NCBI GenBank assembly: GCA_020053305.1
Contig: JAGVNJ010000018.1
Span: 1,910 to 65,909, forward strand
Source of the DNA: Candidatus Edwardsbacteria bacterium
GTDB lineage: Bacteria > Edwardsbacteria > AC1 > EtOH8
Direction: 5' to 3'
Length of the DNA: 64,000 nt
Part shown: in pieces, positions 44,594-59,330 of the stretch
Layout: the number at the start of each line of letters is the position of its first letter
Position numbering within the stretch: the first letter of the stretch is position 1
The notes under the pieces: model-generated
The model's database searches: none
Seen by the model: the letters and a program-made list of their open reading frames with translations, nothing else
Told to the model about the DNA's origin: nothing
Position numbers and translations under genes: made by a program

Positions 44594-44680
44594 TGGTGCC
44601 GAGGGGGGGAGTCGAACCCCCATGCCCTTGCGAACACTAAGTTCTGAGCCTAGCGCGTCTACCAGTTCCGCCACCTCGGC
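44594..44680 (-). tRNA. tRNA-Leu (anticodon CAG), long variable arm, CCA encoded
   Basis: Hand fold: acceptor GCCGAGG/CCTCGGC, anticodon arm CTAGG-CTCAGAA-CTTAG, a 15-nt variable arm, T-arm GGGGG-TTCGACT-CCCCC. It is 87 nt. Confidence 0.8.
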
Positions 44681-44735: not shown

Positions 44736-45188
44736 ATGATCGAAAGCATATTAAATAAGAAGGCCCGGTATGATTACGAGATAATCGACCGGCTGGAGAC
44801 CGGGATCGTTCTGCGGGGCACCGAGGTCAAGTCCATCCGCCAGGGGCAGGCCAACCTCAAGGACAGTTTTGCCATGGTCAAGGGCCGGGAGCTGTTCCTG
44901 TTCAATATGCATGTTTCGCCCTATGATCACGGCAACCGCTACAACCTGGAGGCCACCCGCCCCAGAAAACTGCTGCTCCACCGGGAGCAGATCCGGAAAT
45001 TGACCGCCCAGCAAAAAGAGAAGAACCTGTCCCTGATTCCGCTGTCGCTGTATTTTAAAAAGGGAAAGGTGAAGATCGACCTGGCTCTGGCCAAAGGCAA
45101 GAAACAGTATGACCGGCGGGAGGACATCAAGAAACGGGACGTGGATAGGGAGATGAGAGGCACCAACAAGGGGAGGTTCCGGGGATAG
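44736..45188 (+). CDS. smpB: SsrA-binding protein
   Basis: It is 150 aa. RYDYEI...GIVLRGTEVKSIR is typical of SmpB. Confidence 0.9.
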   Translation: MIESILNKKARYDYEIIDRLETGIVLRGTEVKSIRQGQANLKDSFAMVKGRELFLFNMHVSPYDHGNRYNLEATRPRKLLLHREQIRKLTAQQKEKNLSLIPLSLYFKKGKVKIDLALAKGKKQYDRREDIKKRDVDREMRGTNKGRFRG

Positions 45189-46189: not shown

Positions 46190-47300
46190 TCAATATCCGC
46201 AATAATTCTCCCTGTGAATGGAGCCAAAGAAAATATTTTGATGTTATGACACCTTGGGCGGAAATATGCTTTCGGATATTCCTATCATTCACCAAGCGCA
46301 TGATATGCTTGGCCAGTGATCTGCTGTCCCCGGGCCGATAGGTCAGGCAGTTATGCCCCGGGCGTGCATATTCGGAACATCCGCCATTCTCGCTAAGGAT
46401 AACGGCACAGCCGCAGGCCATGGCTTCCAGGGCGGGTAAACCGAAGCCTTCGCTTAAGCTGGTGGATACAAACACATCACTACAGTTATATATTCCAGCC
46501 AGGGCGGTATCATTTCGAGGGCTTTCCAACTGCCATTCCCGGGGGATATCATAACCGATAAGGTTATCCGGGGTTACTATTGTAACCGATAGCTGCTGCC
46601 TTATATTTTCCGGCAGGTGCCTAAAGGCCGTGATCATGGTTTGAAGTCCTTTTATGGGATGAAACCTGGCTAGATAAACCAAATGGACCTTGTCTCCGGG
46701 TGTCTTGTTTTGGCCCGGGGAATGATTAAAAACGCTGGGGTTTACGCCGGGGCGGACCAGCGCCGGAGGAATACAATCCCTTTTGGAATTGAACAGAAAC
46801 CGGCGATAAGTATGACGGGAGTTGAAAATATAGCAGACGTTTGGATATCTATAGCTTAGGAAAGTCAGGATTTTATAAAGGCCATAAAAAAAGTTATTTC
46901 GCAATAGTGCCAAATCGCTGAATATTTGAAAGTCATCCGCCTGAATAAAGTTGTAAACGGGATCCCTGCGAATGAAAAGTAAAAGAGGGCCGAGCATCTG
47001 CCCGGTGGAAATTATATGTTTGAATCTACTAGCAGACAGGTTGATGAAAAAAAACAGCAATAATATATTTATAGCGCGAATGATAAGACCACCTCCGAAA
47101 AGGCCAATGGCCCTGACCTGTACCCCTGGGGCAGTTCTATAATAACATTCACCGGGTCCCCTGGGATACCATATGGCTATGCGGTATTTTTCAATCAAGC
47201 CGTTGGCCAATTCAAAGACAACCCTATTGCCTCCGCCGATCTTGACGGAGGGCAATAAAAACAGAATTGAATTTTGCGGATTTCGTTTCATGACAAACAA
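46173..47300 (-). CDS. Glycosyltransferase family 4 (GT-B, group 1)
   Basis: The C-terminal EGFGLPALEAMACGCAVI nucleotide-sugar-binding motif is present. Confidence 0.8.
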   Translation of the reverse strand: MFVMKRNPQNSILFLLPSVKIGGGNRVVFELANGLIEKYRIAIWYPRGPGECYYRTAPGVQVRAIGLFGGGLIIRAINILLLFFFINLSASRFKHIISTGQMLGPLLLFIRRDPVYNFIQADDFQIFSDLALLRNNFFYGLYKILTFLSYRYPNVCYIFNSRHTYRRFLFNSKRDCIPPALVRPGVNPSVFNHSPGQNKTPGDKVHLVYLARFHPIKGLQTMITAFRHLPENIRQQLSVTIVTPDNLIGYDIPREWQLESPRNDTALAGIYNCSDVFVSTSLSEGFGLPALEAMACGCAVILSENGGCSEYARPGHNCLTYRPGDSRSLAKHIMRLVNDRNIRKHISAQGVITSKYFLWLHSQGELLRILNDGTF

Positions 47301-47309
47301 AATGAAAAA

Positions 47310-48587
47310 TCAAATATTCGGGGCACCATCTTCAGCTGTCAGCCTATCAAGATGAACAGCCAGTTGGCGGGCGATCAGCCGGCGATCATATTTCTGCAAG
47401 GCTTTTGCATCGGGTCGAAAGTCTATCCTATTTGTCTGCCACTGATGAAAAAGCCGCTCGATCAAATCTGCCAACCCCAGATAATCATCTGGCTCTAGTA
47501 CTGTTCCGGTGCTTGTTTCACTGATCAATTGGGCGGCCGGGCTGAAACTCGGGACCGATGCCAGGATCGGCTTTCGCGCTCCCAAATATTCGTAGACCTT
47601 GCTAGTGGAGACGGTCGGGCCCTCTTCCCGTCCTATTGTAAACCATAGGATCGTAGCTTCTTCCAGTATTTCGATCACCCGATTATGAGCCAAATGTCCC
47701 CTAAATTCGAAATAATCAGAGACTCCCAAATGCCGGGCAATCTTCAGATCTTCCGATTTATATACTCCGGCCACAATTATTCTGATGTTTTGAGCCAGGT
47801 GCTGTTTTCTTTTGAGCAATTCACGAAAGGCTCGGGCCAAAACATCTATCCGGCGGTATTTGGTCAAAGAACCGGTGTAGGCTATTGTAAATTTGTCCGA
47901 TCTTGGCCGGGTATTGTTCAAAGGGAAATCCAGGGGATCAAATCCTTGGGGCAGGATGCCGTTAGCCGTGCTTTTTTTTAGGCCGATATTTTGCAGGCCC
48001 TCAAGGATGGGGGCATTGATGGCCGTTATCATATCGGCCTGCTTGACGACCAAGCCCTCAATGTTGCGATTAAGCTGCAACCGGAAAGAAGAATAGCCCC
48101 GGTTAAGGGTATTGGGCTGGGACCAGGCATCCCGAAAGTCACAGATCAGAGGCCGGTCGACCAGGCGTTTGATAAATAGACCGGCCAGATGCGAGGAAAA
48201 AGGCGGAGCGGAAGAGAATATGGCGTCGAAGGGGTTTTGCCGAAAGATTTTCAAGGCGGCCTGAACGGCGAACGGGACCCAGCCGATCTTATTGTCGGGG
48301 ATAAAGAAGTTGTTGATAAAACCGATGAAGCCGCGATGGCGGCTGACCGTCTGGGGATCAAGCCTAGAAAAAGAAAGATGCATGGGGTCCAATGAAGGGG
48401 TGCGGAATACCTGAGATTGCTGCAGATCTTTAGAAAGAGAATCATCATAGCGGTATATGCCCCGGGGATAGGGGGCTATTACAACGGGTTGCCAGTTGTT
48501 GTCGGGCAGATATTTTATGAATTTGACTATCCTGTGAACGCCGCCTTGGGGTGGGTGATAGTAATTGAGTATCAGCAGGCGTTTCAT
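47310..48587 (-). CDS. Glycosyltransferase, GT4-like (GT-B)
   Basis: The start ATG at 48587 overlaps the wecB stop (ATGA). The track ORF has a 56-codon spurious Pro/Gly-rich extension. It has the GT-B two-Rossmann architecture. Confidence 0.65.
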   Translation of the reverse strand: MKRLLILNYYHPPQGGVHRIVKFIKYLPDNNWQPVVIAPYPRGIYRYDDSLSKDLQQSQVFRTPSLDPMHLSFSRLDPQTVSRHRGFIGFINNFFIPDNKIGWVPFAVQAALKIFRQNPFDAIFSSAPPFSSHLAGLFIKRLVDRPLICDFRDAWSQPNTLNRGYSSFRLQLNRNIEGLVVKQADMITAINAPILEGLQNIGLKKSTANGILPQGFDPLDFPLNNTRPRSDKFTIAYTGSLTKYRRIDVLARAFRELLKRKQHLAQNIRIIVAGVYKSEDLKIARHLGVSDYFEFRGHLAHNRVIEILEEATILWFTIGREEGPTVSTSKVYEYLGARKPILASVPSFSPAAQLISETSTGTVLEPDDYLGLADLIERLFHQWQTNRIDFRPDAKALQKYDRRLIARQLAVHLDRLTAEDGAPNI

Positions 48588-49660
48588 CTGCCCAGGTGCC
48601 TTTCCAAGTGTCCCGCTATCAGACGGGCGGACTGTCCCTGGCCGTAAAGGCTGGGGTGAGAGGCTGGCGGTCTCAAATAGGCCAGGGCTTTTAGAATGCG
48701 TTTTTTGTCCGGTCCCACCAGGCGATTCCATCCGGTCTTGACCGTCTCCACCCACTCGGTCTCATGGCGCACCGTCAAACAGGGAGTCTTTAGCAGATAG
48801 GCTTCTTTTTGGATGCCCCCGGAATCGGTGATCACTGCATAGGCTGCCGATTGCAGGGCCAGCGACTCCCGGTATCCCTGGGGAGGTATCAGCATTACGT
48901 TTTCCGATCCTTCCAGCTTATCCCAAAGCGAAATATCCTTCAGCTTCCTCTCGGTGCGGGGATGAACCGGGAAGACTGCCTTTTTCCCGGATGAGAGCAG
49001 GGCCTCCATTATGGCGGATAAATTCTCCGCGTCATCTGTGTTCTCCGCCCGATGGATGGTGACAAACAGATAATTTCCCGGCACCAGTGACAGCTTCTTG
49101 ATTATTTTTGCAGTCTGGTCTTTGGTTGGTAGAATATATTTCATGGCATCGTACATGATGTCGCCCACCATGTAGAGGCCGCTGGTGATCCCCTCTTTTT
49201 TAAGATTCTCCATCGCAGTATTAGTGGAGCAGAAATGCATGTTGGACAGGTGATCGGCCACCACCCGGTTGACCTCCTCCGGCATCATCCGGTTGAAGCT
49301 GCGCATGCCGGCCTCGATATGGGCCAGCGGGATGTGCAGCTTGGCGGCGATCAGCGCCCCGGCCAGTGTGGAGTTGGTGTCGCCGAAGATTATAATGGCA
49401 TCGGGTCTTTGTTTGATGACCACCGGCTCCAGCTTGGCCAGCATGGCGGCGGTTTGGGCTCCGTGCAGGCCGGAACCGACCTCCAGGTTGAAATCGGGTC
49501 GGGGGATACCCAACTCTCTAAAGAACTGCTGGGACATTGCGTAGTCGTAATGCTGTCCGGTGTGCACCAGGATCTCACGGTGTTTTTTTCTGAGGGCCCG
49601 GGAGAGAGGGGCGGCCTTGATGAACTGGGGCCGGGCGCCGATGACGGTCAGAAATTTCAT
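48584..49660 (-). CDS. wecB: UDP-N-acetylglucosamine 2-epimerase (non-hydrolysing)
   Basis: The N-terminus KFLTVIGARPQFIKAAPL...HTGQHYD is characteristic. Confidence 0.9.
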   Translation of the reverse strand: MKFLTVIGARPQFIKAAPLSRALRKKHREILVHTGQHYDYAMSQQFFRELGIPRPDFNLEVGSGLHGAQTAAMLAKLEPVVIKQRPDAIIIFGDTNSTLAGALIAAKLHIPLAHIEAGMRSFNRMMPEEVNRVVADHLSNMHFCSTNTAMENLKKEGITSGLYMVGDIMYDAMKYILPTKDQTAKIIKKLSLVPGNYLFVTIHRAENTDDAENLSAIMEALLSSGKKAVFPVHPRTERKLKDISLWDKLEGSENVMLIPPQGYRESLALQSAAYAVITDSGGIQKEAYLLKTPCLTVRHETEWVETVKTGWNRLVGPDKKRILKALAYLRPPASHPSLYGQGQSARLIAGHLERHLGR

Positions 49661-51822
49661 CTTACTATCACCAATTTGCAGATATAAGGTTTTTGTACGG
49701 ATGAGCGGATGCGGCAGAGGTAGATACCAGAGGCCGGCCGCCGGGTAAACTCGGCATCCGGACGGATGGTCAGGGTGTGGGCCGGGGCCGACGGGCCGTA
49801 GAAAGTGCCGCAGGGTCGGCCGTCTATGGTATAGATGTCTATCCGGGCCTCGGTAGGCAGATTGCTGAAATAAACATAACCATCTTTGGTAACATTGAAT
49901 GGGTTGGGCGCCACACAGGGATTGGCAACGGGTCTTTGTGCGACAGCATCATACCTTAAAACGCTTAGGCCTTTAGCGGTGGCTATGTAGATATCGTCGC
50001 CGGATTGGTCCTGCGGGCAGGCAGCTATCTGCTGAATATCATTGCTGATCAAAGAACTATAATTCTGATCAAAATTTACCCATTTCCCGTCCCAGGTCAG
50101 CAAGGACAGGCCCCGCTCGGTCCCGATCCATTTATTATCAGAGCGGTCTATAACTATCGACCGAATATCATTTCCTAAAATTGGAGAACTGTTCGTTTGA
50201 AAAACCGTTGATCTCAGAGTATGTGTAATCGGGTCATACTCGGAACGGCAAAGGCCGTTTCCGGTGGCCAGCCAAATAATATTGCTGTTGTCAATGGCGA
50301 TCTGGCGGATATTGATGTCCGGAAGACCGGACTCTACGCCGAAATGCTCCCAGGTGTTTTCCTGCGGTTTAAAGTAGGTGAGATCATTATAATATGATCC
50401 CAGCCATAAACCGCCTGACAGGTCTTGGGCGATGGAGATGATCCACATGGCATTGTTATAGGCCCCGCGGGGCGAGGGATCGGTGTAGCTGGTCCATACG
50501 GAATCATTCGGAGAGACGGAGAAAATGGCGAAATTATAGGCCGTGAAGTATTTAGTGTTGTTATTGTCAACCAGGCCAGTCCAGACGCCACAGCCGGAAG
50601 GCACCCGGGGTGTGGAGAAGATGCTGGTAAGACTGTCCTCGCTGTATTTCAGAATGTAAGAATTATTGAATCCGTCCCACCAGCCCAAGCCGACCCAAGC
50701 GTTATGGTTCTGATCCACTGTTATAGAAGTCAAAGGAATGCCCGATATGGGGTTTATAAAAGTGCTCCAGATGTTATTTTTATAATTGCAGACCAGCGTA
50801 TTGCCGTCGATGGCCCAAAGGGTGCCTGTTTTCGAAACAGAGATCTCTTTAACATAATTAAAGGCAATGCTGGGGAATGGATAATTATTCCAGCTTCCCC
50901 CGGTACGGCAGCAGAGGCCAGCGGCACTGCCGGCCCATAACCTTTGATCTCCGTCAACCGACAATGAAAGCACATTATAACTCAATAGCCCGGGGCTGAT
51001 GTCGCTCAGGATATTCTGATGCCAGAGTTTTACCCCGTTATTGGTGGCAAAATACAAAGAGTCCCCGATCTGGGCCAGGCTTCTTATCTGATCTCCCAGC
51101 CCCGGGATCCTCTGCCAGGCTCCGCCGACCAACCGGGCCGCGCCGTTGGCGGCGCCGATCATCGACAGGGTGTCGGTCAGCAGGATGCATCTTATATCCG
51201 ATGACAAGCCATCATAGTTGGCGAAAGTTTTCCAGTTATTGGTATCGCGTATCGCGGACAGGGGGAATATTTTTACGATACGCAGACCCTGGTCGGTGGC
51301 GATCCACAGGGAGTCGTTCCTGGCCGACAGGGCCTGGGTCTGGTTGCCCAGTTCATATCCCTGCTGGGCCAGCAGGGAGAACCAGTTGTAGCCGTCATAA
51401 TAGGAGAGGGAGCCATACCCTCCGGCAAAAACATTCTGCCCGTTGGCCGCCGCGCAGAAGATTGTGTCCGAGGCCAGGCCGTCGTTTCGGGTGAACACTG
51501 TCCAGGCATTGCCGGCCGAATCCAGTCGGGCCAGGCCGCCGCCCAGGGTGCCGATCCACTTGTGGTGACGGGCATCCAAAGTTATCGAAGAAGCCTCGAT
51601 ATACGGCAGGCCGTCCACGTTGGTGTAATGCTTGATCAAAACAGTATCGGTGGAGGAGAAAGAGAATATACCGCCCGGGGTGGCTCCCCAGATGATATTA
51701 CCTCCCGGCTGGAAGACTATCTGGGAAACATTATTGAAATTGGTGTAGCTTATCCAGTGCTGGGCTTGGGATGTCAGGCAGAGGATAAGCAGCGATGATA
51801 TTGCCAGGCAAATCTTTTTCAT
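49657..51822 (-). CDS. Secreted beta-propeller (two-component-regulator-propeller-like repeats) protein with a T9SS C-terminal domain
   Basis: It has a signal peptide and many W/G-rich propeller blades. The C-terminus (RIDIYTIDGRPCGTFYG...SGIYLCRIRS) is Por_Secre_tail-like. Confidence 0.6.
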   Translation of the reverse strand: MKKICLAISSLLILCLTSQAQHWISYTNFNNVSQIVFQPGGNIIWGATPGGIFSFSSTDTVLIKHYTNVDGLPYIEASSITLDARHHKWIGTLGGGLARLDSAGNAWTVFTRNDGLASDTIFCAAANGQNVFAGGYGSLSYYDGYNWFSLLAQQGYELGNQTQALSARNDSLWIATDQGLRIVKIFPLSAIRDTNNWKTFANYDGLSSDIRCILLTDTLSMIGAANGAARLVGGAWQRIPGLGDQIRSLAQIGDSLYFATNNGVKLWHQNILSDISPGLLSYNVLSLSVDGDQRLWAGSAAGLCCRTGGSWNNYPFPSIAFNYVKEISVSKTGTLWAIDGNTLVCNYKNNIWSTFINPISGIPLTSITVDQNHNAWVGLGWWDGFNNSYILKYSEDSLTSIFSTPRVPSGCGVWTGLVDNNNTKYFTAYNFAIFSVSPNDSVWTSYTDPSPRGAYNNAMWIISIAQDLSGGLWLGSYYNDLTYFKPQENTWEHFGVESGLPDINIRQIAIDNSNIIWLATGNGLCRSEYDPITHTLRSTVFQTNSSPILGNDIRSIVIDRSDNKWIGTERGLSLLTWDGKWVNFDQNYSSLISNDIQQIAACPQDQSGDDIYIATAKGLSVLRYDAVAQRPVANPCVAPNPFNVTKDGYVYFSNLPTEARIDIYTIDGRPCGTFYGPSAPAHTLTIRPDAEFTRRPASGIYLCRIRSSVQKPYICKLVIVR

Positions 51823-51956
51823 GGATGAATATTACCTTAAGTAGGCCTTTAAAGTCAATGGTTTTGGAGCAGTTTATTGAAGTAACTATTTTTATCAACG
51901 CGATTTTATATTCTCTATTGAAATACCAAAGCCACCTGTGATAACATAACGACACT

Positions 51957-53135
51957 ATGTTCAAATCAGATTCTTACGATGTTATAGTAGTGGGCGGCGG
52001 GCCGGCCGGGTCCATGGCCGCCAAAGAGATAGCCCAAGCCGGGCATTCAGTCCTAATGGTGGAGAAGCACCGGGAGATCGGCATCCCGCTGTGCTGTGCC
52101 GAGGCTACCAGCCTCAGGAGCCTGGGGCTGTTCATGAAACCCGATCCCAAATGGGTGGCGGCTCCCATCAACGGGGCTATTCTCTATTCCCCGGACGGGA
52201 CCGAGGTGGCGGTGCCCTGGGCCGAGGTGGGGGTGGTGCTGGAGCGTAAGATCTTCGACCGCCACCTGGCCGGGATGGCCGGAGCCGCCGGGGCCGAGGT
52301 GATGGTCAAAACCGAGGCGGTGGCAATCAAGATGAACGGCGAGACCGTCGAAGAAGTGACATTAAAATCAGGCAATGAAACAAGATCCATAAAATGCCGG
52401 GTGGTGATAGGCGCCGACGGGGTGGAATCCCTGGTCGGGGCCTGGGCCGGGATGGATACCCGGCTGGAGCCGGAACAATTTCACAGCTGCGCCCAATACT
52501 TGATGTCCAACGTGGATGGCTTGCCGGACATGGTCCGCTTCTGGGTGGGCCGGGATATCGCGCCGGGAGGCTATCTGTGGATATTTCCCAAAGGCAACGG
52601 ACTGGCCAATGTGGGACTGGGCATCGTGGCCTCGTTGGCCGGAGAGAAAAAACCGGTGCAATACCTGGATGAATTCATCGCCAAAAAACTGCCCGGGGCC
52701 AAAGTGATCGAAGCCATGGCGGGAGGCACGCCGGCCCTGGGTTCCGATCACCCGATGGTCAAGGGCAACGTCCTGCTGGCCGGGGATGCCGCCCGGCTGA
52801 CCGATCCTCTTTCTGGTGCCGGCATCGCCATAGCCATGGCCTCGGGCACGATGGCCGGAAATCTGGCCGCCGAATACCTTAAGACCAACGACATTTCACA
52901 ACTTAAGAAATATCCCAAGGAATGGTGGTCCGGCCCCTGGAAGGACCTTAAATTCCATCATTTGGTGCGGGAGGTGTTTTTGAAACTGTCCGACCAGGAG
53001 ATGGACCGGATCGCCAGATTGCTGGTCAATATCCTGGCCGGGAAGGATCCGGCCCGGATAAATCCCATAGACGTGGCCAAGACGGTCATCAGATCCGATC
53101 CGGGAATTTTATTATTGGGAAGGCATCTGCTGTGA
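51957..53135 (+). CDS. Geranylgeranyl reductase-family FAD-dependent oxidoreductase
   Basis: It has the FAD Rossmann fold VIVVGGGPAGSMAAKE. GGYLWIFPKG and LAGDAARLTDPLSGAG are GGR-family signatures. Confidence 0.8.
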   Translation: MFKSDSYDVIVVGGGPAGSMAAKEIAQAGHSVLMVEKHREIGIPLCCAEATSLRSLGLFMKPDPKWVAAPINGAILYSPDGTEVAVPWAEVGVVLERKIFDRHLAGMAGAAGAEVMVKTEAVAIKMNGETVEEVTLKSGNETRSIKCRVVIGADGVESLVGAWAGMDTRLEPEQFHSCAQYLMSNVDGLPDMVRFWVGRDIAPGGYLWIFPKGNGLANVGLGIVASLAGEKKPVQYLDEFIAKKLPGAKVIEAMAGGTPALGSDHPMVKGNVLLAGDAARLTDPLSGAGIAIAMASGTMAGNLAAEYLKTNDISQLKKYPKEWWSGPWKDLKFHHLVREVFLKLSDQEMDRIARLLVNILAGKDPARINPIDVAKTVIRSDPGILLLGRHLL

Positions 53136-54172
53136 GCAAAATAAAGATCATATCCATCGCACTTCTGGCATATCTGTTATTGCTGGCGGCTGACCTGAGG
53201 GCCGGCATCTCCCAAAACTTCGACGGCCGGGTAGACCAGGGGCTGGAGATCCTCTATCAGGGGGATTACGACAGCGCCCTGGTGATATTCGATTCCTTCA
53301 TCCGGGACAACCCGCAGAACCCGGCCGGGTATTTTTTCAAGGCCGGACTTTACCAGACCAGGATGTCGGCCTATGAAAGCGATTTCTGGCACAAGTATTA
53401 TAAGAATTCAGTGGACAGCGCCATAATGCTCTGCAACCTGGCCCTCGACGATGATCCCAAGGATGCCTGGGCTTATTTTGTCAGGGGCGGGAGTTTTTCC
53501 TACATCGCGGCCTGGGATGCCAAGCAGGGCAAATACCTGGCGGCCTTCCGGAACGGCCTGAAGGCGGTGTCAGATTTCAAAAAGGCCCGGGCGATCGATC
53601 CCGCCCTGTATGACGCCTATATTGGGATAGGCTCCTATCATTATTTCCGGACCAAGGCCACCGGTTTTATAAAGTGGCTGCCCTTCATCGGAGACGACCG
53701 GGACCAGGGGATCTCGGAGATAATCACCGCCATCGAGAAGGGGCGCTACTCCCGGGTGATGGGGCAGAACGCCCTGCTGTGGATCTACACCGATTACGGC
53801 CGGGAGAAAAAAGCCCTGGAGCTGGGCGGGGCGCTGGAAAAGCTGTATCCCAACAATCCTTTCTTCCACTGGGCGGTGCCGGAGGTATTGTGGCGGCAGA
53901 AAAGATGGCCGGAGGCCGAGGCCGCTTACGGCAAACTGATGAAGCTATTGGAACGGCAGAATGCCCTCAACAATTACAACAAGGTGGTGGCCTCCTATAA
54001 GCTGGCCAAATGTTTTTTGGAGAATGGGAAATACCAGGACGCTTACCGGGTTGCCCAGCAATCCATCAGCTATCCCCTGGACCAGGAGACCGCCGGCCGG
54101 CTGGTGAACGAGCGCCGCAGGGCCCAGGAGGTGATGCTTCAGGCCGAAAAGAAGATCAGGGAAAACAAGTGA
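53132..54172 (+). CDS. Secreted TPR-like repeat protein
   Basis: It has a signal peptide and helical repeat content. Its start overlaps the GGR stop (ATGA). Confidence 0.5.
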   Translation: MSKIKIISIALLAYLLLLAADLRAGISQNFDGRVDQGLEILYQGDYDSALVIFDSFIRDNPQNPAGYFFKAGLYQTRMSAYESDFWHKYYKNSVDSAIMLCNLALDDDPKDAWAYFVRGGSFSYIAAWDAKQGKYLAAFRNGLKAVSDFKKARAIDPALYDAYIGIGSYHYFRTKATGFIKWLPFIGDDRDQGISEIITAIEKGRYSRVMGQNALLWIYTDYGREKKALELGGALEKLYPNNPFFHWAVPEVLWRQKRWPEAEAAYGKLMKLLERQNALNNYNKVVASYKLAKCFLENGKYQDAYRVAQQSISYPLDQETAGRLVNERRRAQEVMLQAEKKIRENK

Positions 54173-54840
54173 AAAAAGTAACCGTTGCCATAATCGCCAG
54201 GGACGAGGCGGCCACCATAGTTCAAATAGTTGAGGCAGCCCGGCCCTTGGCGGATGAGCTACTGGTCATCGACGGCGGATCAACCGACGGCACCGCCCAG
54301 ATTGCGGCCGGAGCCGGGGCGACGGTGATATCGGACGACGGCCGCGGCAAGGGGGCCGGAGTCAGGGCCGCTATCCAGAAGGCTAAAGGAGAGGTGCTGG
54401 TGCTGATGGATGCCGACGGCTCCCACGAGCCGGCCGATATCCCGCGCCTAGCTGGCCCCATCATCGAGGCAAGGGCCGATATGGTGATAGCCTCGCGGCT
54501 GCGGGGAGGCTCGGATGAGTTCCACGGCACTTTGGACAACATCGTCCGGCAGACCGGCGGGGCGCTTATCAGCCTGATGTTGCTTTGGCGCTGGAAGGCG
54601 GACATCACCGACTGCGAGAACGGCTTCCGGGCCGTCGATACTGCCAAGGCCCGGCAGCTGGGATTGACATCCAACGGTTTTCTGATAGAACAGGAGATGG
54701 TGATAAAGGCCATCAAGCAGGGACTGGTCATAAAGGAGATCGCCAGCCATGAGTTTTCCCGGCAGGGGGGCGTCTCCAAGCTGAAGACCTCGCAGGGCTG
54801 GAGATTCCTATGGCACATCTTTAAGGAGATGATCTTTTGA
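54169..54840 (+). CDS. GT2 polyprenyl-phosphate sugar synthase (DPM1/GtrB/ArnC-like)
   Basis: ARDEAATI, LVIDGGSTDGT and LMDADGSH are GT-A DXD-type motifs. It is about 223 aa and soluble. The GTG start overlaps the upstream stop (GTGA). The track ORF start at 54010 is rejected. Confidence 0.75.
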   Translation: MKKVTVAIIARDEAATIVQIVEAARPLADELLVIDGGSTDGTAQIAAGAGATVISDDGRGKGAGVRAAIQKAKGEVLVLMDADGSHEPADIPRLAGPIIEARADMVIASRLRGGSDEFHGTLDNIVRQTGGALISLMLLWRWKADITDCENGFRAVDTAKARQLGLTSNGFLIEQEMVIKAIKQGLVIKEIASHEFSRQGGVSKLKTSQGWRFLWHIFKEMIF

Positions 54841-56243
54841 AGGTGCTGCTGATAAACCCTCCGGCCTATCTAGGGGTATCCCAGGTGCGGGAGGGTCGCT
54901 GCATGCAGAGGGCCGGGGCCTGGACCTCCGTCTGGCCGCCGCTCTCCCTGGCCCTGACGGCGGCCGTTCTGCGAAGGGCGGGCCATCAGGTGCGGCTGAA
55001 CGACTGCATCGTGGAAAATTTGTCCCGGGAAGGATTGGCGGAGAGCGCCCGGAATTTTAAGCCCGATTGGTGTCTGTTCAACAGCGCCACGCCTTCCATA
55101 GCCGGGGACACGGAGACGGTGGATGCGCTCAAGACAGCTTTTCCCGCTTGCCGCATGGCAGTGCTGGGCATTCATCCCACCGCCCTGCCGGAGGAGACCT
55201 TTGCCCTCTCCAAACATCTCGAAGTGATCATAAAGGGCGAGCCGGAACAGACCGCTCTGGAATTAATGTCAACTGTTGACCTTGATAGCGTGGCCGGAAT
55301 CAGCTATCGCATCAACGGCATCATAAAACACAACCCGCCGCGCCCGGCGCTGGAAGACCTGGACCGCCTGCCCTTTCCCGCCTGGGACCTGATCCAGCGG
55401 GACCTCTACAAGCTCCCCCTTTCGGACAAACCCTTTCTGCTGCTGGCCACCAACCGGGGATGTCCATTCAACTGTAAATTCTGCGCCGACCATGTCTATT
55501 ACGGACGAAGACTGAGGAAATTCTCCCCCCAAAGGATCGTCGATGAGATCGAGCACGATGTAAAAGAACTGGGAATAAGTGAATTCCTGTTCTGGGCCGA
55601 ATCCTTCACCCTGGACCGGCAGCATGCCCTGTCGGTAGCCAACGAGATCATCGCCCGGAAGCTGGATATCGGCTGGGTGTGCAACAGCCGGGTGAACCAG
55701 GTGGACCGGGAGATGCTGGAGGCCTTCAAGCGGGCCGGGTGCTGGATGATCGGTTTCGGGATCGAATCCGGCAGCCAGAGGGTGCTGGACCTGATGCACA
55801 AGGGCACCACCGTCGAGCAGTCACGGGAGGCGGTGAAGACGGCTCAGGAAGCAGGACTCCAGGTCACCGCCCATGTGATGATCGGCTACCCCGGGGAGAC
55901 GGCAGACGAGATAAAGCAGACCATCGCCTTGGTCAAGGAGCTGAATTTCGATTTCGCCCAGTTCTACGCGGCGGTGCCCTTCCCCGGCTCCGAATTATAT
56001 GCCGAGGTCAAAGCCAATGGCATGACCATCACCGACGACTGGCGGTATTACGAGCAGAATTTCTGCGTCATCAGGACCGATCAATTGGAACCCCGACAGG
56101 TGGAGAGACTGCGCAACCGGGCCTTCCGGGGGTTCTATCTTAGGCCGGGGCAGATCATCAAAACGATCTCTCATTTAAGAACACCGGGGGCCTGGCGGCA
56201 GGCGTTGAAGGCGGTATGGGAATTCAAGGATTGGGCGGGATAA
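54837..56243 (+). CDS. B12-binding (class B) radical SAM enzyme
   Basis: The N-terminus MKVLLINPP is a Rossmann-like B12-binding domain. CPFNCKFC is the Cx3Cx2C motif. The start overlaps the GT2 stop. Confidence 0.8.
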   Translation: MKVLLINPPAYLGVSQVREGRCMQRAGAWTSVWPPLSLALTAAVLRRAGHQVRLNDCIVENLSREGLAESARNFKPDWCLFNSATPSIAGDTETVDALKTAFPACRMAVLGIHPTALPEETFALSKHLEVIIKGEPEQTALELMSTVDLDSVAGISYRINGIIKHNPPRPALEDLDRLPFPAWDLIQRDLYKLPLSDKPFLLLATNRGCPFNCKFCADHVYYGRRLRKFSPQRIVDEIEHDVKELGISEFLFWAESFTLDRQHALSVANEIIARKLDIGWVCNSRVNQVDREMLEAFKRAGCWMIGFGIESGSQRVLDLMHKGTTVEQSREAVKTAQEAGLQVTAHVMIGYPGETADEIKQTIALVKELNFDFAQFYAAVPFPGSELYAEVKANGMTITDDWRYYEQNFCVIRTDQLEPRQVERLRNRAFRGFYLRPGQIIKTISHLRTPGAWRQALKAVWEFKDWAG

Positions 56244-56266
56244 AGGGATTTTATGATTAAAATTAC

Positions 56267-58156
56267 ATGAAAAAACAATATCTGCAAATATCGCTCATAT
56301 TGCTTCTGACGGTCCTGGTATATCTGCCGGCCCTGAAGGCCGACTTCATGTACGACGACCGTTTTTTTGTGCAGGAGAACACCAAGATCCGGGACTGGAA
56401 ATACGTCGGGGAATACTTTGCCAATTCCGGACGCTCCATAGCCAGCATCTTCTGGGACGGCATCTGGCGGCCACTGAGGACCATCACTTATCTTGTCGAC
56501 TACAAGGTTTGGGGTCTTAACCCATTCGGCTTCCACCTGACCAGCCTGCTGTGGCACCTGGCGAACATCACTCTGCTGTATTTTCTGCTGGGTCTGCTGT
56601 TCAAAGACAAAAGGCTGCCCCTGGCAGTCTGCCTGATATTCGCCCTCCATCCGGTGCAGACCGAGGCTGTGACCTGGATCTCCAGCCGGGGGGACCTTAT
56701 GTATGTGACCTTCGGCCTGCTGATGTTCATCTTGCATCACAGATATCGGGAAAATAAAAGAATATATTTACTGGGGCTGTCGCTTTTAAGCTTGACCCTG
56801 GCGCTACTGTCAAAGGAAACGGCGGTGGTCTTCCCATTGCTGGTCATGCTCTATGACTGGCTTTTTGATCAGAGGGGCCGGATCAAGACATTTCTGGCCG
56901 GATGGAAAATCTATCTTCCTTACCTGGTTTTGCTGGCCGTCTACCTAATAACCAGAAGACTGGCCTTGGGCCGGGTCTCCCAGTGCCCCTACTGGGGCGA
57001 TTCCCTCTGGACCACCATCTTCACCATGTTCCGGGCGGCCCTGGAGTATGTCCGGCTGTTATTCCTGCCCCTGTGGCTGAAGGTGGATTACGTGTACGAC
57101 CTGTCCACCTCTTTGCTGGATTGGAGGGTGCTGGGCTCGCTGGCGATCCTTGGGTCTATCAGCCTTCTGGCCGCCCGTGACATCAAAGGATCAAGATTCC
57201 TGGCCTTCGGCTGGCTGTGGCCGGTGATCGGCCTGCTGCCGGTCTCCAATCTTCTGCCGCTGACGGCCATTATGGCCGAGCGATTCCTGTACCTGCCGGT
57301 GATCGGATTTGCGGTTTGGGCCGGCTTTCTGCTGGGCGGCGTCCGGAACCAAAAAGTATTCCAGATGGTTGTGATTACATTGATACTGTTGATGGCCGGA
57401 CTGACAATAAAGCGTAATATAGAATGGCAGGAGCCGTTAAAATTCTGGCGGACCGAGACCGGGCGTTCGCCGGACTCCTATATTGCTCACGGCAATCTGG
57501 GGAATATCCTGTTCCTGAACGAAGATATGGCCGGGGCCGAAAGAGAATACCGCCGGGCGGTGGAGCTGGATTCCACCTATGACAATGCCCTGTCCGGGCT
57601 GGCCATAACCTGCGCCCAGTTGCAGAAATACCAGGAGGGGGAAAGGTATGCCCAAAAATGCCTGGCTCTGAATCCCGGCAATACCAATGCATTGCTGACA
57701 GTGGGTATCTGCCGGGCGGCCAACGATGATCTTGATTCGGCTGAAATTTATTTCTCCCGGGCCACCAATGCCGAACCGGAAAATGAAAAAGGATGGATCA
57801 ATCTGGGGATCATCCATAAGCGGCAGGGGAACTGGGGCAAAGCCGTTTCCGATTATGAACGTGCGATAAGGATACAGCCCGGGGCTCCAACCCTGTACTA
57901 TGAGCTGGGAACAATATGGGCCGAGCAGAATGAACTGACCAAAGCGGCTGCTTTATGGCAAAGGGCCCTGGACATCGATCCGGACTTTCTGCCGGCCAGG
58001 ATGAACCTGGCACTGGCCCTGGAGAAAAGCGACCCGGCCCGGGCGGCCGGGGAGTGGGAGATTTTTTTGCAGCGGGCCGGGGCCCAGGGCCAGCCGGTCA
58101 ACCAAGCATTAGTCAGAAAAAGAATAGCGGAGCTGAATGATAGAACAGGGAAATAA
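56267..58156 (+). CDS. PMT/ArnT-like (GT-C) polytopic membrane glycosyltransferase with C-terminal TPR repeats
   Basis: It has about 11 TM helices. A DD motif lies in the first extracytoplasmic loop (FMYDDRFF). About 250 aa of TPR repeats are present (NALSGLAITC..., WINLGIIHKRQGNW...). Confidence 0.6.
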   Translation: MKKQYLQISLILLLTVLVYLPALKADFMYDDRFFVQENTKIRDWKYVGEYFANSGRSIASIFWDGIWRPLRTITYLVDYKVWGLNPFGFHLTSLLWHLANITLLYFLLGLLFKDKRLPLAVCLIFALHPVQTEAVTWISSRGDLMYVTFGLLMFILHHRYRENKRIYLLGLSLLSLTLALLSKETAVVFPLLVMLYDWLFDQRGRIKTFLAGWKIYLPYLVLLAVYLITRRLALGRVSQCPYWGDSLWTTIFTMFRAALEYVRLLFLPLWLKVDYVYDLSTSLLDWRVLGSLAILGSISLLAARDIKGSRFLAFGWLWPVIGLLPVSNLLPLTAIMAERFLYLPVIGFAVWAGFLLGGVRNQKVFQMVVITLILLMAGLTIKRNIEWQEPLKFWRTETGRSPDSYIAHGNLGNILFLNEDMAGAEREYRRAVELDSTYDNALSGLAITCAQLQKYQEGERYAQKCLALNPGNTNALLTVGICRAANDDLDSAEIYFSRATNAEPENEKGWINLGIIHKRQGNWGKAVSDYERAIRIQPGAPTLYYELGTIWAEQNELTKAAALWQRALDIDPDFLPARMNLALALEKSDPARAAGEWEIFLQRAGAQGQPVNQALVRKRIAELNDRTGK

Positions 58157-59330
58157 AATATTCGCGATCTGCCTGCTGGGCGTATCAGCCATGATTCTGA
58201 ATTGCTCCCCGGTCTACCTCAGCCGCAAACCGCCGGAGGGCGAGATTCTGATAAGGATCGCCCTGCAGCGGCGCCAGCCCAGAGCGGTGGTCTACGGATC
58301 ATACAATATCACGGTCTGGGACCAGAACCATAAAAGCGCCATCCTGCCGGGCGAAAGCTGGAGCATCCTGCCGGCGGGCTTGGGATTGACGGCCGAAACG
58401 AACAGAGGCACTGCCATAGAAAACATCGAGGGGCGGATCCGGCTGTGGTCTACTGATGAATATTTCATCAATCAAAAACGAGTGAAGGGCGCGATCGAGA
58501 TCCGCCGGGATAATGACCAGGGACTGCTGGTCATTGCCGAGATGCCGCTGGAGGATTACCTGCCAGGGGTGCTGGCCAGTGAGATCGGCGGTTTGGCCGA
58601 CAAAGCGCCCCAGGCGGCCATGGCCCAGGCCATAATCTCCCGCAGCTACGCCTTTGCCAGGATCGGCGCCAAGCCGGAGAGTTATTATGACATCGAGGCC
58701 GGAACCTCGCACCAATGCTTTGACCTGGATAATGTGGCTTCGTCCACTATCAAACGTGCAGTCAATGATACCAAAGGGAAAGTACTGACCTTTCGGGGCA
58801 AGATGATATCGCCCAATTTCCATTCCACCTGTGGGGGCAGGACCGCCCGGCCCTCCGAGATCTGGAACGCCAGGGATGAAGAGTTCCCCTATCTGGAATC
58901 GGTGGAGGACAAATGGTGCGGCATCTCACCCAAATATAGCTGGAGCGATACCATCATGGCGGAGGAACTTGCTGTCACGGTATTCCCCGGGAAGCAAGAG
59001 ATTATAAAGGACGTAAAGGTTCTAAAGGTTGGAAAGTCAGGAAGGGTGATCTCTTTGCTTGTTTCCACCAGCGCCGGGGATAGCGTGCTGACCAAGGCGG
59101 CGGTGCGCAACGGGCTGAAGGACAAGCCTTTGCTCAGCACCTGGTTTGGTCTTGAGAATATTCGCAATGCCCAGGGAGATATTGAAAAGGTCATTTTGAC
59201 CGGACGGGGTTTCGGGCACGGGGTGGGGCTGTGCCAGTGGGGGGCAATCGGAATGGCCCGGGCCGGTAAAAACTATAAAAGCATTTTGAAGCATTTTTAC
59301 AAGGGAGTGGAGATAGATAGGATATATTGA
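58137..59330 (+). CDS. SpoIID/LytB-domain protein
   Basis: RSYAFAR and HSTCGGRTA are characteristic of SpoIID-like lytic transglycosylases. Confidence 0.7.
   Translation: MIEQGNKIFAICLLGVSAMILNCSPVYLSRKPPEGEILIRIALQRRQPRAVVYGSYNITVWDQNHKSAILPGESWSILPAGLGLTAETNRGTAIENIEGRIRLWSTDEYFINQKRVKGAIEIRRDNDQGLLVIAEMPLEDYLPGVLASEIGGLADKAPQAAMAQAIISRSYAFARIGAKPESYYDIEAGTSHQCFDLDNVASSTIKRAVNDTKGKVLTFRGKMISPNFHSTCGGRTARPSEIWNARDEEFPYLESVEDKWCGISPKYSWSDTIMAEELAVTVFPGKQEIIKDVKVLKVGKSGRVISLLVSTSAGDSVLTKAAVRNGLKDKPLLSTWFGLENIRNAQGDIEKVILTGRGFGHGVGLCQWGAIGMARAGKNYKSILKHFYKGVEIDRIY

What the first reader, a model, noticed from the sequence alone, without database searches (positions are those of the whole stretch)
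51957..58156. Translationally coupled operon GGR – TPR – DPM1-like GT2 – B12-radical SAM – PMT/ArnT-like TPR transferase: a putative saturated-polyprenol-phosphate-sugar glycosylation system
Five plus-strand genes are chained by overlapping stop/start codons (ATGA at 53132, GTGA at 54169, overlap at 54837). A DPM1/GtrB-type synthase next to a GT-C PMT/ArnT-type transferase is the classic two-step logic of polyprenyl-P-sugar formation and transfer. That logic is established for protein O-mannosylation, Ara4N lipid A modification and O-antigen glucosylation. Here the pair is embedded with a geranylgeranyl-reductase-family flavoenzyme and a class-B (B12) radical SAM enzyme, which those systems lack. 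GGR paralogues saturate dolichol in archaea. A B12-rSAM could C-methylate or otherwise modify the lipid or the sugar. The combination in an FCB-like bacterium suggests an undescribed glycoconjugate or lipid-modification pathway using a reduced, dolichol-like carrier. It sits beside a second glycan cluster at 45191-49660 and a T9SS-secreted propeller.
Basis: partly seen in the sequence, partly recalled or inferred. Interest (0 to 1): 0.8.

Follow-up and report, generated by a model that had tools for sequence, protein, structure and literature searches.

The report
Lipid-linked sugar transfer operon with radical enzyme
An uncultivated Edwardsbacteria-type bacterium carries an operon pairing a lipid-phosphate-sugar synthase with a membrane glycosyltransferase, the standard way bacteria glycosylate things outside the cytoplasm. 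A vitamin-B12 radical enzyme that recurs with this pair in several phyla is the new part, whereas the isoprenoid reductase that drew attention is a local add-on.

Summary
Five + strand genes (GGR, TPR, GT2, B12 radical SAM, GT-C/TPR) have the stated domains and are chained by 4-nt stop/start overlaps. The first overlap is GTGA, not ATGA. A sixth gene (SpoIID/LytB, 58137-59330) overlaps the last by 20 nt, so the operon is longer than reported.

The small DPM1/AglJ-type GT2 belongs to a conserved family. Of 45 metagenome loci with enough sequence, 31 hold a PMT_2-like GT-C and 12 have this radical SAM directly downstream of the GT2. The GT2-radical SAM pair occurs in Elusimicrobia, Actinobacteria, Patescibacteria, Omnitrophota, Planctomycetes and Thermodesulfobacteriota, often with a class-I methyltransferase that this window has lost. 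The GT-C has a confirmed GT-C fold and four TMTC O-mannosyltransferase motifs.

The GGR is a genuine archaeal-type geranylgeranyl reductase, but it is not part of the conserved system. It is missing from a sister lineage's orthologous operon and from 78 of 79 related metagenome loci. Its orthologues elsewhere follow a UbiA prenyltransferase. The "saturated dolichol-like carrier" idea is therefore weakly supported. What may be new is a B12 radical SAM enzyme built into a polyprenyl-P-sugar/GT-C pathway.

The parts
51957..53135 (+). Geranylgeranyl reductase family flavoprotein (392 aa). Co-transcribed here, but a clade-specific addition rather than part of the conserved glycosylation module.
   Evidence: TIGR02032 233.5 bits (cut-off 158.8) and PF22578 GGR_cat. 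221 bits to Thermoplasma DGGGPL reductase 3oz2 over the full length. Motifs GxGxxG 13-18, C46/C47 and PxxYxWxFP 203-211. Nearest relatives outside the clade are 44-47% identical and include archaeal reductases. Absent from L009/L010, and paired with UbiA in L091/L092.
53132..54172 (+). Membrane-anchored TPR protein (346 aa, one N-terminal TM segment). It is the 'hinge' gene shared by the GGR module and the glycosylation module.
   Evidence: TPR Pfam hits and TM 1-27. Its orthologue follows the GGR in L091 without glycosylation genes (34% identity, E 2e-61). Its orthologue precedes the GT2 in L009/L010 without a GGR.
54169..54840 (+). DPM1/AglJ-type GT2 (223 aa, no TM segment). Inferred polyprenyl-phosphate hexosyltransferase.
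   Evidence: PF00535 81 bits. Best NCBIfam hits are AglJ 132 bits, PpgS 64.5 bits and Dol-P-hexose transferase 59 bits, all below cut-off. Profile A4 gives 87 bits to P. furiosus DPMS 5mlz (positions 2-220) and 54 bits to ArnC (2-221); GpgS matches only the N-terminal half. DADGSH, NGFRA and IEQEM are invariant across phyla.
54837..56243 (+). Class-B (B12-binding domain) radical SAM enzyme (468 aa). Accessory tailoring enzyme of the GT2.
   Evidence: PF02310 plus PF04055; CxxxCxxC at 209-216. Best NCBIfam hits are HpnJ 246 bits (cut-off 578, aligned 1-447) and BchE 207 bits. Best PDB hit is AprD4 at 103 bits. About 50% identical family members occur in many phyla. A cognate GT2 lies directly upstream in 13 of the 15 loci whose rSAM scores at least 339 bits (L001-L011, L013, L015); L012 has only a weak GT2-like ORF downstream and the archaeal L014 has none adjacent.
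56267..58156 (+). GT-C glycosyltransferase with a C-terminal TPR domain (629 aa). TMTC-like architecture.
58137..59330 (+). SpoIID/LytB-domain protein (397 aa, N-terminal TM/signal).
   Evidence: TIGR02669 208.5 bits (cut-off 83.3). 20-nt overlap with the GT-C gene. The same position and overlap are kept in L005-L010.
51918..51947 (+). Promoter-like site in the 134-nt divergent intergenic region upstream of the GGR gene.
   Evidence: Consensus scan, 9 of 12 matches with a TG extension. This is a consensus match only.

Best explanation
The block is a composite operon. Its conserved core is a two-enzyme periplasmic glycosylation module.

Proposed steps (all inferred, none shown):
1. The soluble DPM1/AglJ-type GT2 loads a hexose from a nucleotide sugar onto polyprenyl phosphate at the cytoplasmic face of the membrane.
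2. The class-B radical SAM enzyme, translationally coupled to the GT2, chemically tailors that sugar. The reaction is most likely C-methylation, deoxygenation or an HpnJ-like rearrangement. The substrate is most likely the lipid-linked sugar, less likely the nucleotide sugar.
3. An unidentified flippase moves the lipid-linked sugar to the periplasmic face.
4. The TMTC-like GT-C transfers the sugar to an acceptor chosen by its periplasmic TPR domain, most likely Ser/Thr of envelope or secreted proteins.

Many relatives carry a class-I SAM methyltransferase between the radical SAM and GT-C genes. This lineage has lost it.

The upstream GGR-TPR pair is a separate, older module. Elsewhere it follows a UbiA prenyltransferase. 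It was joined to the glycosylation module only in this Edwardsbacteria/TA06 clade, and the GGR is not required by the glycosylation module. SpoIID/LytB is co-transcribed, which points to a cell-envelope role.

Shown here: gene order, overlaps, domain and fold assignments, and conservation patterns. Inferred: all substrates and the reaction of the radical SAM enzyme.
For: GT2 assignment:
- Full-length profile matches go only to polyprenyl-phosphate glycosyltransferases, DPMS at 87 bits and ArnC at 54 bits.
- The best curated families are AglJ, PpgS and Dol-P-hexose transferase.

GT-C assignment:
- The fold is GT-C.
- The TMTC catalytic and donor-binding motifs described in PMC7801869 are present.
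- Homologues pass PF08409 TMTC_DUF1736.

Linkage of GT2 and GT-C:
- Of 45 metagenome loci with at least 1.5 kb downstream of a family GT2, 31 contain a PMT_2-like GT-C.
- In 17 of them the GT-C is directly adjacent to the GT2 with no radical SAM gene.

Linkage of GT2 and radical SAM:
- 12 of those 45 loci have the radical SAM directly downstream, and 8 of the 12 also have a GT-C.
- The pair is kept with 1-4-nt overlaps or short gaps in Elusimicrobia, Actinobacteria, Patescibacteria, Omnitrophota, Thermodesulfobacteriota and Portnoybacteria. In Planctomycetes L173 the two genes are 1.8 kb apart, separated by a toxin-antitoxin insertion and a 217-aa ORF.
- GT2 and radical SAM similarity scores fall together across loci.

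Methyltransferase:
- It is present after the radical SAM gene in L001, L002 and L009, and upstream of the GT2 in L173 and L174. L007/L008 carry a truncated remnant.

GGR as a separate module.

Precedent for auxiliary enzymes acting on polyprenyl-P-sugars before GT-C transfer: the three-component systems with epimerases in PMC11127046. ArnD and DprE1/E2 are further examples from my own knowledge.

Precedent for an HpnJ-type radical SAM acting on a lipid-linked amino sugar made by a glycosyltransferase: PMC13459092.
Against: - No substrate has been shown for any of these enzymes.
- No flippase gene (GtrA, SMR or MATE type) is in the operon.
- The closest curated families of the radical SAM, HpnJ and BchE, are not methylases. 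An HpnJ-like ring contraction would give a carbocycle, which a GT-C could not transfer by the normal mechanism.
- In 4 of the 12 radical SAM loci no GT-C was seen, although many of those contigs are short. Planctomycetes L173 has none within 7 kb.
- The window GT-C itself does not reach PF08409, and it only just reaches the PMT_2 gathering score.
- The GGR is retained in the operon, with a 4-nt overlap into the TPR gene, throughout a clade spanning 71-100% radical SAM identity. A second, independent GGR-family gene lies 2.7 kb from the module in Omnitrophota L174. A functional link of the GGR to the pathway is therefore not excluded.
Confidence: 0.6

Rival explanations
1. All five genes form one pathway. 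The GGR saturates the polyprenyl (dolichol-like) carrier, the GT2 loads it with sugar, the radical SAM modifies the lipid or the sugar, and the GT-C transfers the sugar.
For: - The GGR is a bona fide prenyl reductase with the PxxYxWxFP pocket motif.
- It is translationally coupled into the operon.
- A distant GGR-family gene (TIGR02032 170.5 bits, cut-off 158.8) lies 2.7 kb downstream of MT-MT-GT2-rSAM-PMT_2 in Omnitrophota L174.
- GGR paralogues are implicated in archaeal dolichol saturation (PMC10821996, listed; not read in detail).
Against: - The orthologous operon in L009/L010 lacks the GGR but keeps everything else.
- No GGR is present in the other phyla sampled or in 78 of 79 metagenome loci.
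- Across 99 loci and 895 kb there are two independent co-locations, against roughly 0.45 expected by chance. This is not significant.
- GGR orthologues at 54-56% identity follow a UbiA prenyltransferase, and in L091 the GGR-TPR pair occurs without any glycosylation gene.
- GGR-family enzymes are not known to reduce the alpha-isoprene unit that defines dolichol (my own knowledge).
Confidence: 0.13
2. The GT2 and radical SAM make an end-product glycolipid rather than a donor. This would be an HpnI/HpnJ- or calditol-synthase-like route, in which a lipid-linked hexose is ring-contracted to a cyclitol head group on an isoprenoid lipid. In this clade the chains of that lipid might be reduced by the GGR. 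The GT-C would serve another purpose.
For: - HpnJ is the best-scoring curated family for the radical SAM, at 246 bits aligned end to end.
- HpnJ and the Sulfolobus calditol synthase are both proposed to contract a lipid-linked hexose (PMC13459092).
- Some GT2-radical SAM loci show no GT-C nearby (L004, L113, L124, L130, L168, L173).
- The GGR is archaeal-type.
Against: - The HpnJ score is far below the family cut-off of 578.
- The GT2 is of the DPM1/AglJ/ArnC type, not HpnI-like.
- The same GT2 family is most often a direct neighbour of a GT-C. 8 of 12 radical SAM loci also have a GT-C, and in L001, L015 and L174 it is directly downstream.
- No archaeal-lipid core genes are in the window.
Confidence: 0.12
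3. The neighbourhood is fortuitous. The genes are co-transcribed envelope genes without a shared pathway, and the radical SAM acts on an unrelated substrate such as a peptide or a cofactor.
For: - The closest families include BchE, and ApyD, a RiPP enzyme.
- The operon is visibly composite: GGR-TPR, the glycosylation genes and SpoIID have separate histories.
Against: - The GT2-radical SAM pair is conserved, with overlapping or abutting genes, across at least seven phyla, and the two proteins diverge in parallel.
- GT-C adjacency recurs.
Confidence: 0.1

Closest known systems
Three-component periplasmic glycosylation systems: polyprenyl-P-sugar synthase, flippase and GT-C. Examples are GtrB/GtrA/Gtr* O-antigen glucosylation, ArnC/ArnD/ArnEF/ArnT, and the PPPRS/MATE/GT136 pentofuranose systems (PMC11127046).
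   Same: - A small GT2 of the DPM1/ArnC type sits next to a GT-C transferase.
- Auxiliary enzymes that remodel the lipid-linked sugar before transfer are known: epimerases in PMC11127046, the ArnD deformylase, and DprE1/E2.
   Different: - No flippase gene is in the operon.
- The GT2 has no TM segment.
- The auxiliary enzyme is a class-B radical SAM, which none of these systems has.
- The GT-C carries TPRs rather than a carbohydrate-binding or plain periplasmic domain.
Eukaryotic DPM1 plus TMTC1-4 (GT-C with C-terminal TPRs): cadherin O-mannosylation.
   Same: - The transferase has the same architecture: an N-terminal multi-span GT-C domain with DD, YRP, KET and ERxxY motifs, followed by TPRs on the non-cytoplasmic side.
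- The donor synthase is DPM1-like and lacks a TM segment, as human DPM1 does.
- Bacterial full-length TMTC homologues are already noted in PMC7801869.
   Different: - The organism is bacterial, and the acceptor and sugar are unknown.
- The window protein does not itself reach the TMTC_DUF1736 Pfam threshold.
- A radical SAM tailoring step is inserted between synthase and transferase.
Hopanoid side-chain pathway HpnI (GT), HpnK and HpnJ (B12-type radical SAM); also Sulfolobus calditol synthase.
   Same: - A glycosyltransferase puts a hexose on a lipid, and a radical SAM enzyme then remodels that lipid-linked sugar.
- HpnJ is the best-scoring curated family for the window enzyme.
   Different: - The score of 246 bits is far below the HpnJ cut-off of 578.
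- The GT2 is DPM1-type, not HpnI-type.
- No hopanoid genes are present.
- The product here is probably a donor for a GT-C, not an end-product lipid.
Archaeal digeranylgeranylglycerophospholipid reductase / GGR family (Thermoplasma 3oz2).
   Same: - Full-length homology at 221 bits.
- FAD motif, catalytic Cys region and PxxYxWxFP prenyl pocket are present.
- 44-47% identity to proteins that their sources name as archaeal reductases (Methanolobus, Archaeoglobaceae).
   Different: - The host is bacterial.
- Scores are below all equivalog cut-offs (DGGGPL reductase, ChlP, MenJ).
- The conserved partner in relatives is an unassigned UbiA prenyltransferase, so the substrate is unknown.

Membership tests
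Geranylgeranyl reductase family (TIGR02032 / PF22578) | Score above the curated family cut-off | tested here: met
   TIGR02032 233.5 bits against 158.8; PF22578 94.3 bits against 27.
Geranylgeranyl reductase family (TIGR02032 / PF22578) | FAD GxGxxG motif, conserved Cys near the flavin, and the PxxYxWxFP prenyl-pocket motif. The motif definition is recalled from the Thermoplasma GGR structure paper and was not re-read here. | tested here: met
   GGGPAG 13-18, C46/C47 and PGGYLWIFP 203-211.
Specific GGR equivalogs (DGGGPL reductase, ChlP/BchP, MenJ) | Score above the equivalog cut-off | tested here: not met
   NF041160 226 bits against 780; TIGR02023 141 against 343; MenJ 78 against 700.
Polyprenyl-phosphate glycosyltransferase (DPM1/DPMS/AglJ/GtrB/ArnC type GT2) | GT2 catalytic domain with a DxD motif and homology extending through the C-terminal acceptor/interface half | tested here: met
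   PF00535 81 bits, with DAD at 81-83. The profile matches DPMS 5mlz over positions 2-220 and ArnC over 2-221, while GpgS/MpgS match only the N-terminal half.
Polyprenyl-phosphate glycosyltransferase (DPM1/DPMS/AglJ/GtrB/ArnC type GT2) | Score above a curated equivalog cut-off (AglJ, PpgS, Dol-P-hexose transferase, ArnC) | tested here: not met
   AglJ 132 bits against 325; PpgS 64.5 against 370; ArnC 23 against 529.
Polyprenyl-phosphate glycosyltransferase (DPM1/DPMS/AglJ/GtrB/ArnC type GT2) | Transfers sugar to polyprenyl phosphate | not testable with these tools
   This needs an enzyme assay. The only indirect support is genomic linkage to GT-C genes.
Class-B (cobalamin-domain) radical SAM | N-terminal B12-binding-type domain plus a radical SAM core with CxxxCxxC | tested here: met
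   PF02310 50.3 bits against 32.1; PF04055 98.1 bits against 29.5; CPFNCKFC at 209-216.
HpnJ (TIGR03471) | Score above the equivalog cut-off and a hopanoid gene context | tested here: not met
   246 bits against 578. No hopanoid genes were found among the window ORFs that were scanned.
GT-C glycosyltransferase superfamily | Multi-span GT-C fold | tested here: met
GT-C glycosyltransferase superfamily | Acidic DD/DE motif in the first extracytoplasmic loop | tested here: met
   D30 and D31 are invariant in 30 homologues and lie directly after TM1.
TMTC-type O-mannosyltransferase (GT-C plus TPR) | Motifs M1 DD, M2 ..YRP, M4 KET and M7 ERxxY, with C-terminal TPRs (PMC7801869) | tested here: met
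   DD 30-31, WRP 67-69 (family consensus YRP), KET 183-185, ERFLY 338-342, and TPRs at roughly 400-629.
TMTC-type O-mannosyltransferase (GT-C plus TPR) | Pfam TMTC_DUF1736 (PF08409) above the gathering score | tested here: not met
   The window protein has no hit at E up to 0.01. Homologues P0232, P0236 and P0196, which are 30-33% identical, pass at 30-36 bits against 27.
PMT_2 (PF13231; ArnT/PMT-like) | Score at or above the gathering score | tested here: inconclusive
   24.9 bits for the full-length protein is below the cut-off of 26.1. The N-domain alone scores 26.1 bits, equal to the cut-off. 7 of 14 homologues match.
Three-component periplasmic glycosylation system | A dedicated flippase encoded with the synthase and the GT-C | tested here: not met
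   The operon has no small multi-span protein. The only TM proteins are the TPR protein (1 TM), the GT-C and SpoIID.

The most novel reading that the evidence does not exclude
A class-B (B12-type) radical SAM enzyme remodels a polyprenyl-phosphate-linked sugar, by C-methylation, deoxygenation or skeletal rearrangement, between its synthesis by a DPM1-type GT2 and its transfer by a TMTC-like GT-C. This would define a widespread, undescribed fourth component of periplasmic glycosylation systems in Edwardsbacteria/TA06, Elusimicrobia, Omnitrophota, Patescibacteria, Actinobacteria and other mostly uncultivated lineages. It would yield an unusual sugar on envelope proteins or glycans. In this clade the carrier or another prenyl lipid might additionally be saturated by the co-transcribed GGR.
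Probability: 0.35. Interest if true: 0.75.

Novelty: new variant of a known kind. Interest (0 to 1): 0.55.

Why it matters
Radical SAM chemistry on a lipid-linked sugar donor has not, to my knowledge or in the papers searched, been described for any polyprenyl-P-sugar/GT-C pathway. If real, it would add a new class of tailoring step to bacterial surface glycosylation. It would predict unusual C-modified sugars on the envelopes of many uncultivated phyla, including Patescibacteria and Omnitrophota. It would also give bacterial TMTC-like transferases, whose function is unknown, a defined donor pathway to test.

The correction matters too. The attractive "bacterial dolichol" idea rests on a gene that comparative genomics shows to be a clade-specific passenger, whose deeper partner is a UbiA prenyltransferase.

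Tried and rejected
- An exact look-up of the window radical SAM protein found nothing, because the database copy uses a shorter start.
It was useful only as a negative control: the GT2 partner disappears below about 300 bits.
- A sequence-profile search of the GT-C N-domain against the PDB found nothing.
- Foldseek with the full-length model returned only TPR proteins. A separate N-domain model was needed.
- The afdb50 fold library was unavailable, so structural similarity to eukaryotic TMTC models could not be tested directly.
- No riboswitch or other Rfam family is present in the region.
- No UbiA gene is in the window, and none of the ORFs of at least 230 aa scanned in 1-42700 matched an isoprenoid or archaeal-lipid family.
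- Four literature searches combining radical SAM/B12 with polyprenyl, dolichyl-phosphate, GT-C or lipid-linked sugar terms found no description of such a system.
- Considered and rejected: that the GT2 starts at the ATG at 54010 (the alignment with orthologues puts the N-terminus at GTG 54169); that the GGR is a ChlP/BchP or MenJ orthologue (scores are far below the cut-offs); and that the radical SAM is a true HpnJ (below cut-off, and no hopanoid context).

Full report
**Observation.** The window is a chromosomal stretch. It carries pgi, a PBP4-type peptidase, glycine-cleavage genes, pst, recF, gyrB and gyrA. Its nearest relatives are Candidatus Edwardsbacteria and candidate division TA06 MAGs.

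At 51957-58156 the five + strand ORFs exist as described and carry the proposed domains:
- GGR: TIGR02032 233.5 bits against a cut-off of 158.8, plus PF22578.
- A TPR protein with a single N-terminal TM segment.
- A GT2: PF00535 81 bits.
- A B12-binding-domain radical SAM enzyme: PF02310 plus PF04055.
- A 629-aa protein with about nine hydrophobic spans, a borderline PMT_2 match and a C-terminal TPR array.

The GT2 is therefore the 223-aa protein starting at 54169, not the longer ORF from 54010. TTGA lies at 54837 behind an AAGGAGA Shine-Dalgarno sequence. A 23-nt gap follows. The next gene, a SpoIID/LytB-domain protein (58137-59330; TIGR02669 208.5 bits), overlaps the GT-C gene by 20 nt.

The same overlaps occur in orthologous loci. 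No convincing + strand terminator lies inside the block, and the PD40/T9SS gene downstream has its own promoter-like site and terminator. The unit is thus most likely six genes, 51957-59330.

**The glycosyltransferase pair.** A profile of nine GT2 orthologues from six phyla (A4; 56% mean column identity; invariant DADGSH, NGFRA and IEQEM) matches Pyrococcus furiosus Dol-P-Man synthase (87 bits, positions 2-220) and ArnC (54 bits, 2-221) over their whole length. Soluble GT2/GT81 enzymes such as GpgS align only to the nucleotide-binding half. The best curated families are AglJ, PpgS and Dol-P-hexose transferase, all below their cut-offs. This is family-level evidence for a polyprenyl-phosphate hexosyltransferase, not proof.

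The protein carries four motifs that Eisenhaber et al. (PMC7801869) define for TMTC O-mannosyltransferases:
- DD after TM1 (D30/D31, invariant in 30 homologues).
- YRP (WRP at 67-69).
- KET (183-185).
- ERxxY (338-342).

Homologues 30-33% identical to it pass Pfam TMTC_DUF1736, although the window protein itself does not. It is therefore a bacterial TMTC-like GT-C. That paper already notes that such bacterial homologues exist and are uncharacterised.

**Comparative genomics: what is conserved.** Radical SAM homologues about 50% identical occur in Elusimicrobia, Actinobacteria, Planctomycetes, Omnitrophota, Patescibacteria and others. In 13 of the 15 loci whose radical SAM scores at least 339 bits against the window protein, a strongly similar 222-249-aa GT2 lies immediately upstream. 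The two exceptions are L012, with only a weak GT2-like ORF downstream, and the archaeal L014, with none adjacent. The GT2 usually overlaps or abuts the radical SAM gene, and the two scores fall in parallel. Below about 300 bits, among other B12 radical SAM paralogues, the partner disappears.

Searching metagenomes with the GT2 profile gave 79 family loci. Among the 45 with at least 1.5 kb downstream:
- 12 have the radical SAM directly downstream.
- 17 have a PMT_2-like GT-C directly adjacent with no radical SAM.
- 31 have a GT-C somewhere in the often short contig.
- 8 of the 12 radical SAM loci also contain a GT-C.

The general core is therefore GT2 plus GT-C, and the radical SAM is a recurrent accessory in roughly a quarter of the family. 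In a neighbour-joining ordering, radical SAM-linked GT2s form about three clusters interleaved with GT-C-only ones.

A class-I SAM methyltransferase is a second recurrent accessory. It lies after the radical SAM gene in L001, L002 and L009, and before the GT2 in L173 and L174. The TA06 relative keeps a 100-aa remnant between the radical SAM and the GT-C (jackhmmer 231 bits). The window has lost it entirely.

**The GGR.** It is a genuine member of the family. It scores 221 bits against Thermoplasma DGGGPL reductase over the full length, has the PxxYxWxFP pocket motif, and is 44-47% identical to reductases of methanogens and Archaeoglobaceae.

Its link to the glycosylation genes is shallow, for these reasons:
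- It holds the same position in the four related loci that were read and in L093.
- The next lineage out (L009/L010, 62% identity) has identical flanks, from the divergent PorZ-like gene to PhosphMutase, but no GGR.
- No GGR accompanies the module in the other phyla or in 78 of 79 metagenome loci.
- GGR orthologues at 54-56% identity sit directly downstream of an unassigned UbiA-family prenyltransferase (L091, L092). In L091 they are followed by the orthologue of the window's TPR gene (34% identity, E 2e-61) and then by unrelated genes.

L091's TPR is more distant from the window's than L009's is (191 against 321 bits). The simplest history is therefore that GGR-TPR is an old pair associated with UbiA. 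The glycosylation module came to lie downstream of TPR, and L009 later lost the GGR without losing the module.

One caveat must be stated. In Omnitrophota L174 a distant GGR-family gene (TIGR02032 170.5 bits against 158.8; 26% identical) lies 2.7 kb downstream of MT-MT-GT2-rSAM-PMT_2. That makes two independent co-locations in 99 loci and 895 kb, against about 0.45 expected by a rough density estimate. This is suggestive at most.

**The radical SAM enzyme.** It has the canonical CxxxCxxC (209-216) and a class-B N-terminal domain. Its family is very conserved (61% mean column identity across phyla, with several extra invariant Cys/His). No curated family claims it. The best are HpnJ (246 bits against a cut-off of 578, aligned end to end) and BchE (207 bits). 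The best solved relative is the sugar diol-dehydratase AprD4.

HpnJ is genetically implicated in remodelling a lipid-linked glucosamine installed by the HpnI glycosyltransferase, and Sulfolobus calditol synthase does something similar (PMC13459092). Tailoring of a lipid-linked sugar is therefore a reasonable inference. The reaction cannot be decided from sequence. A ring contraction to a carbocycle would be hard to reconcile with subsequent GT-C transfer. I therefore favour C-methylation, deoxygenation or epimerisation-type chemistry on a donor that keeps its anomeric phosphate.

**Mechanism proposed and its status.**
- Shown: gene order, coupling, folds, motifs and conservation statistics.
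- Inferred: the GT2 makes a polyprenyl-P-hexose; the radical SAM tailors it (in relatives the methyltransferase does too); an unidentified flippase moves it, since none is encoded in the operon; and the TMTC-like GT-C transfers it to periplasmic acceptors selected by its TPR domain, probably proteins.
- Auxiliary enzymes acting on polyprenyl-P-sugars are established for other systems (PMC11127046). ArnD and DprE1/E2 are further examples from my own knowledge.
- The roles of the anchored TPR protein and of SpoIID/LytB are unknown beyond pointing to the envelope.

**Comparison and novelty.** The logic is that of known three-component systems and of eukaryotic DPM1/TMTC O-mannosylation. The differences are the embedded class-B radical SAM, the missing flippase and the TM-less synthase. 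Four full-text searches found no description of a radical SAM within such a pathway. Most subscription-journal papers are outside that library, so this is absence of evidence only.

I rate it a new variant of a known kind, with interest 0.55. The widespread GT2-radical SAM-GT-C module deserves experimental follow-up. The "saturated dolichol-like carrier" reading that motivated the original score of 0.8 is weakly supported (about 0.13).

Noticed in passing
window 45191-51822 (- strand): A divergent operon runs opposite the finding. It contains a PorZ-like T9SS propeller with a C-terminal sorting domain (NF052228 134.8 bits, below the cut-off of 260, aligned end to end), UDP-GlcNAc 2-epimerase, two GT4 genes and a radical SAM/SPASM enzyme. 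L005/L006 and L009/L010 keep the PorZ-like gene, the epimerase and a GT4 opposite the operon, and L009/L010 also keep the radical SAM/SPASM gene with a GT2. It may be a glycan pathway tied to T9SS cargo anchoring.
   Followed up: partly
L007/L008 9532-9834: In the TA06 relative, the 100-aa ORF between the radical SAM and the GT-C is a truncated remnant of the class-I methyltransferase that is intact in L009/L010 (jackhmmer 231 bits). The window lineage has deleted it completely, leaving a 23-nt gap.
   Followed up: yes
L091 505-3754; L092 4053-6408: UbiA-family prenyltransferase and GGR are adjacent, with a TPR orthologue added in L091, in more distant Edwardsbacteria-like genomes. The UbiA enzyme matches no curated equivalog; the best hits are PRK12875, ChlG/BchG and PRK12884. 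Its prenylated product, presumably reduced by the GGR, is unknown.
   Followed up: partly
L174 11105-12199: In an Omnitrophota genome, a distant GGR-family gene (TIGR02032 170.5 bits against 158.8) lies 2.7 kb downstream of MT-MT-GT2-rSAM-PMT_2. It is separated from the module by a ParE toxin gene and small ORFs. This is an independent second co-location of a GGR with the module.
   Followed up: partly
L016 (8 copies); L021, L028, L043, L070: Arrays of up to eight tandem B12-domain radical SAM paralogues occur in an unclassified bacterium (L016) and, in smaller arrays, in Bathyarchaeota (L021, L028), Omnitrophica (L043) and Bacteroidetes (L070) contigs, with PMT_2-like genes alongside only in L043. 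Function is unknown.
   Followed up: no
L173 5263-5911: In a Planctomycetes locus, a nucleotidyltransferase/HepT-like toxin-antitoxin pair and a 217-aa ORF with no family are inserted between the family GT2 and its radical SAM partner.
   Followed up: no
window 36331-38433 and 39940-42732 (+): Two large ORFs (700 and 930 aa) have no Pfam match at E up to 1e-5. They lie upstream of a response-regulator/GAF/GGDEF gene (42735-44150).
   Followed up: no
window 14045-15073 (+): A MraY/WecA-family polyprenyl-phosphate sugar-1-phosphate transferase (PF00953 133 bits) is elsewhere in the window. This shows that the organism uses polyprenyl-P carriers. It is not linked to the operon.
   Followed up: no
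window 44597-44680 (-), 26687-26760 (-), 44736-45188 (+): Two tRNA genes (Rfam) and smpB lie here. The tRNA at 44597-44680 and smpB at 44736-45188 sit just beyond the end of the - strand glycan operon.
   Followed up: no
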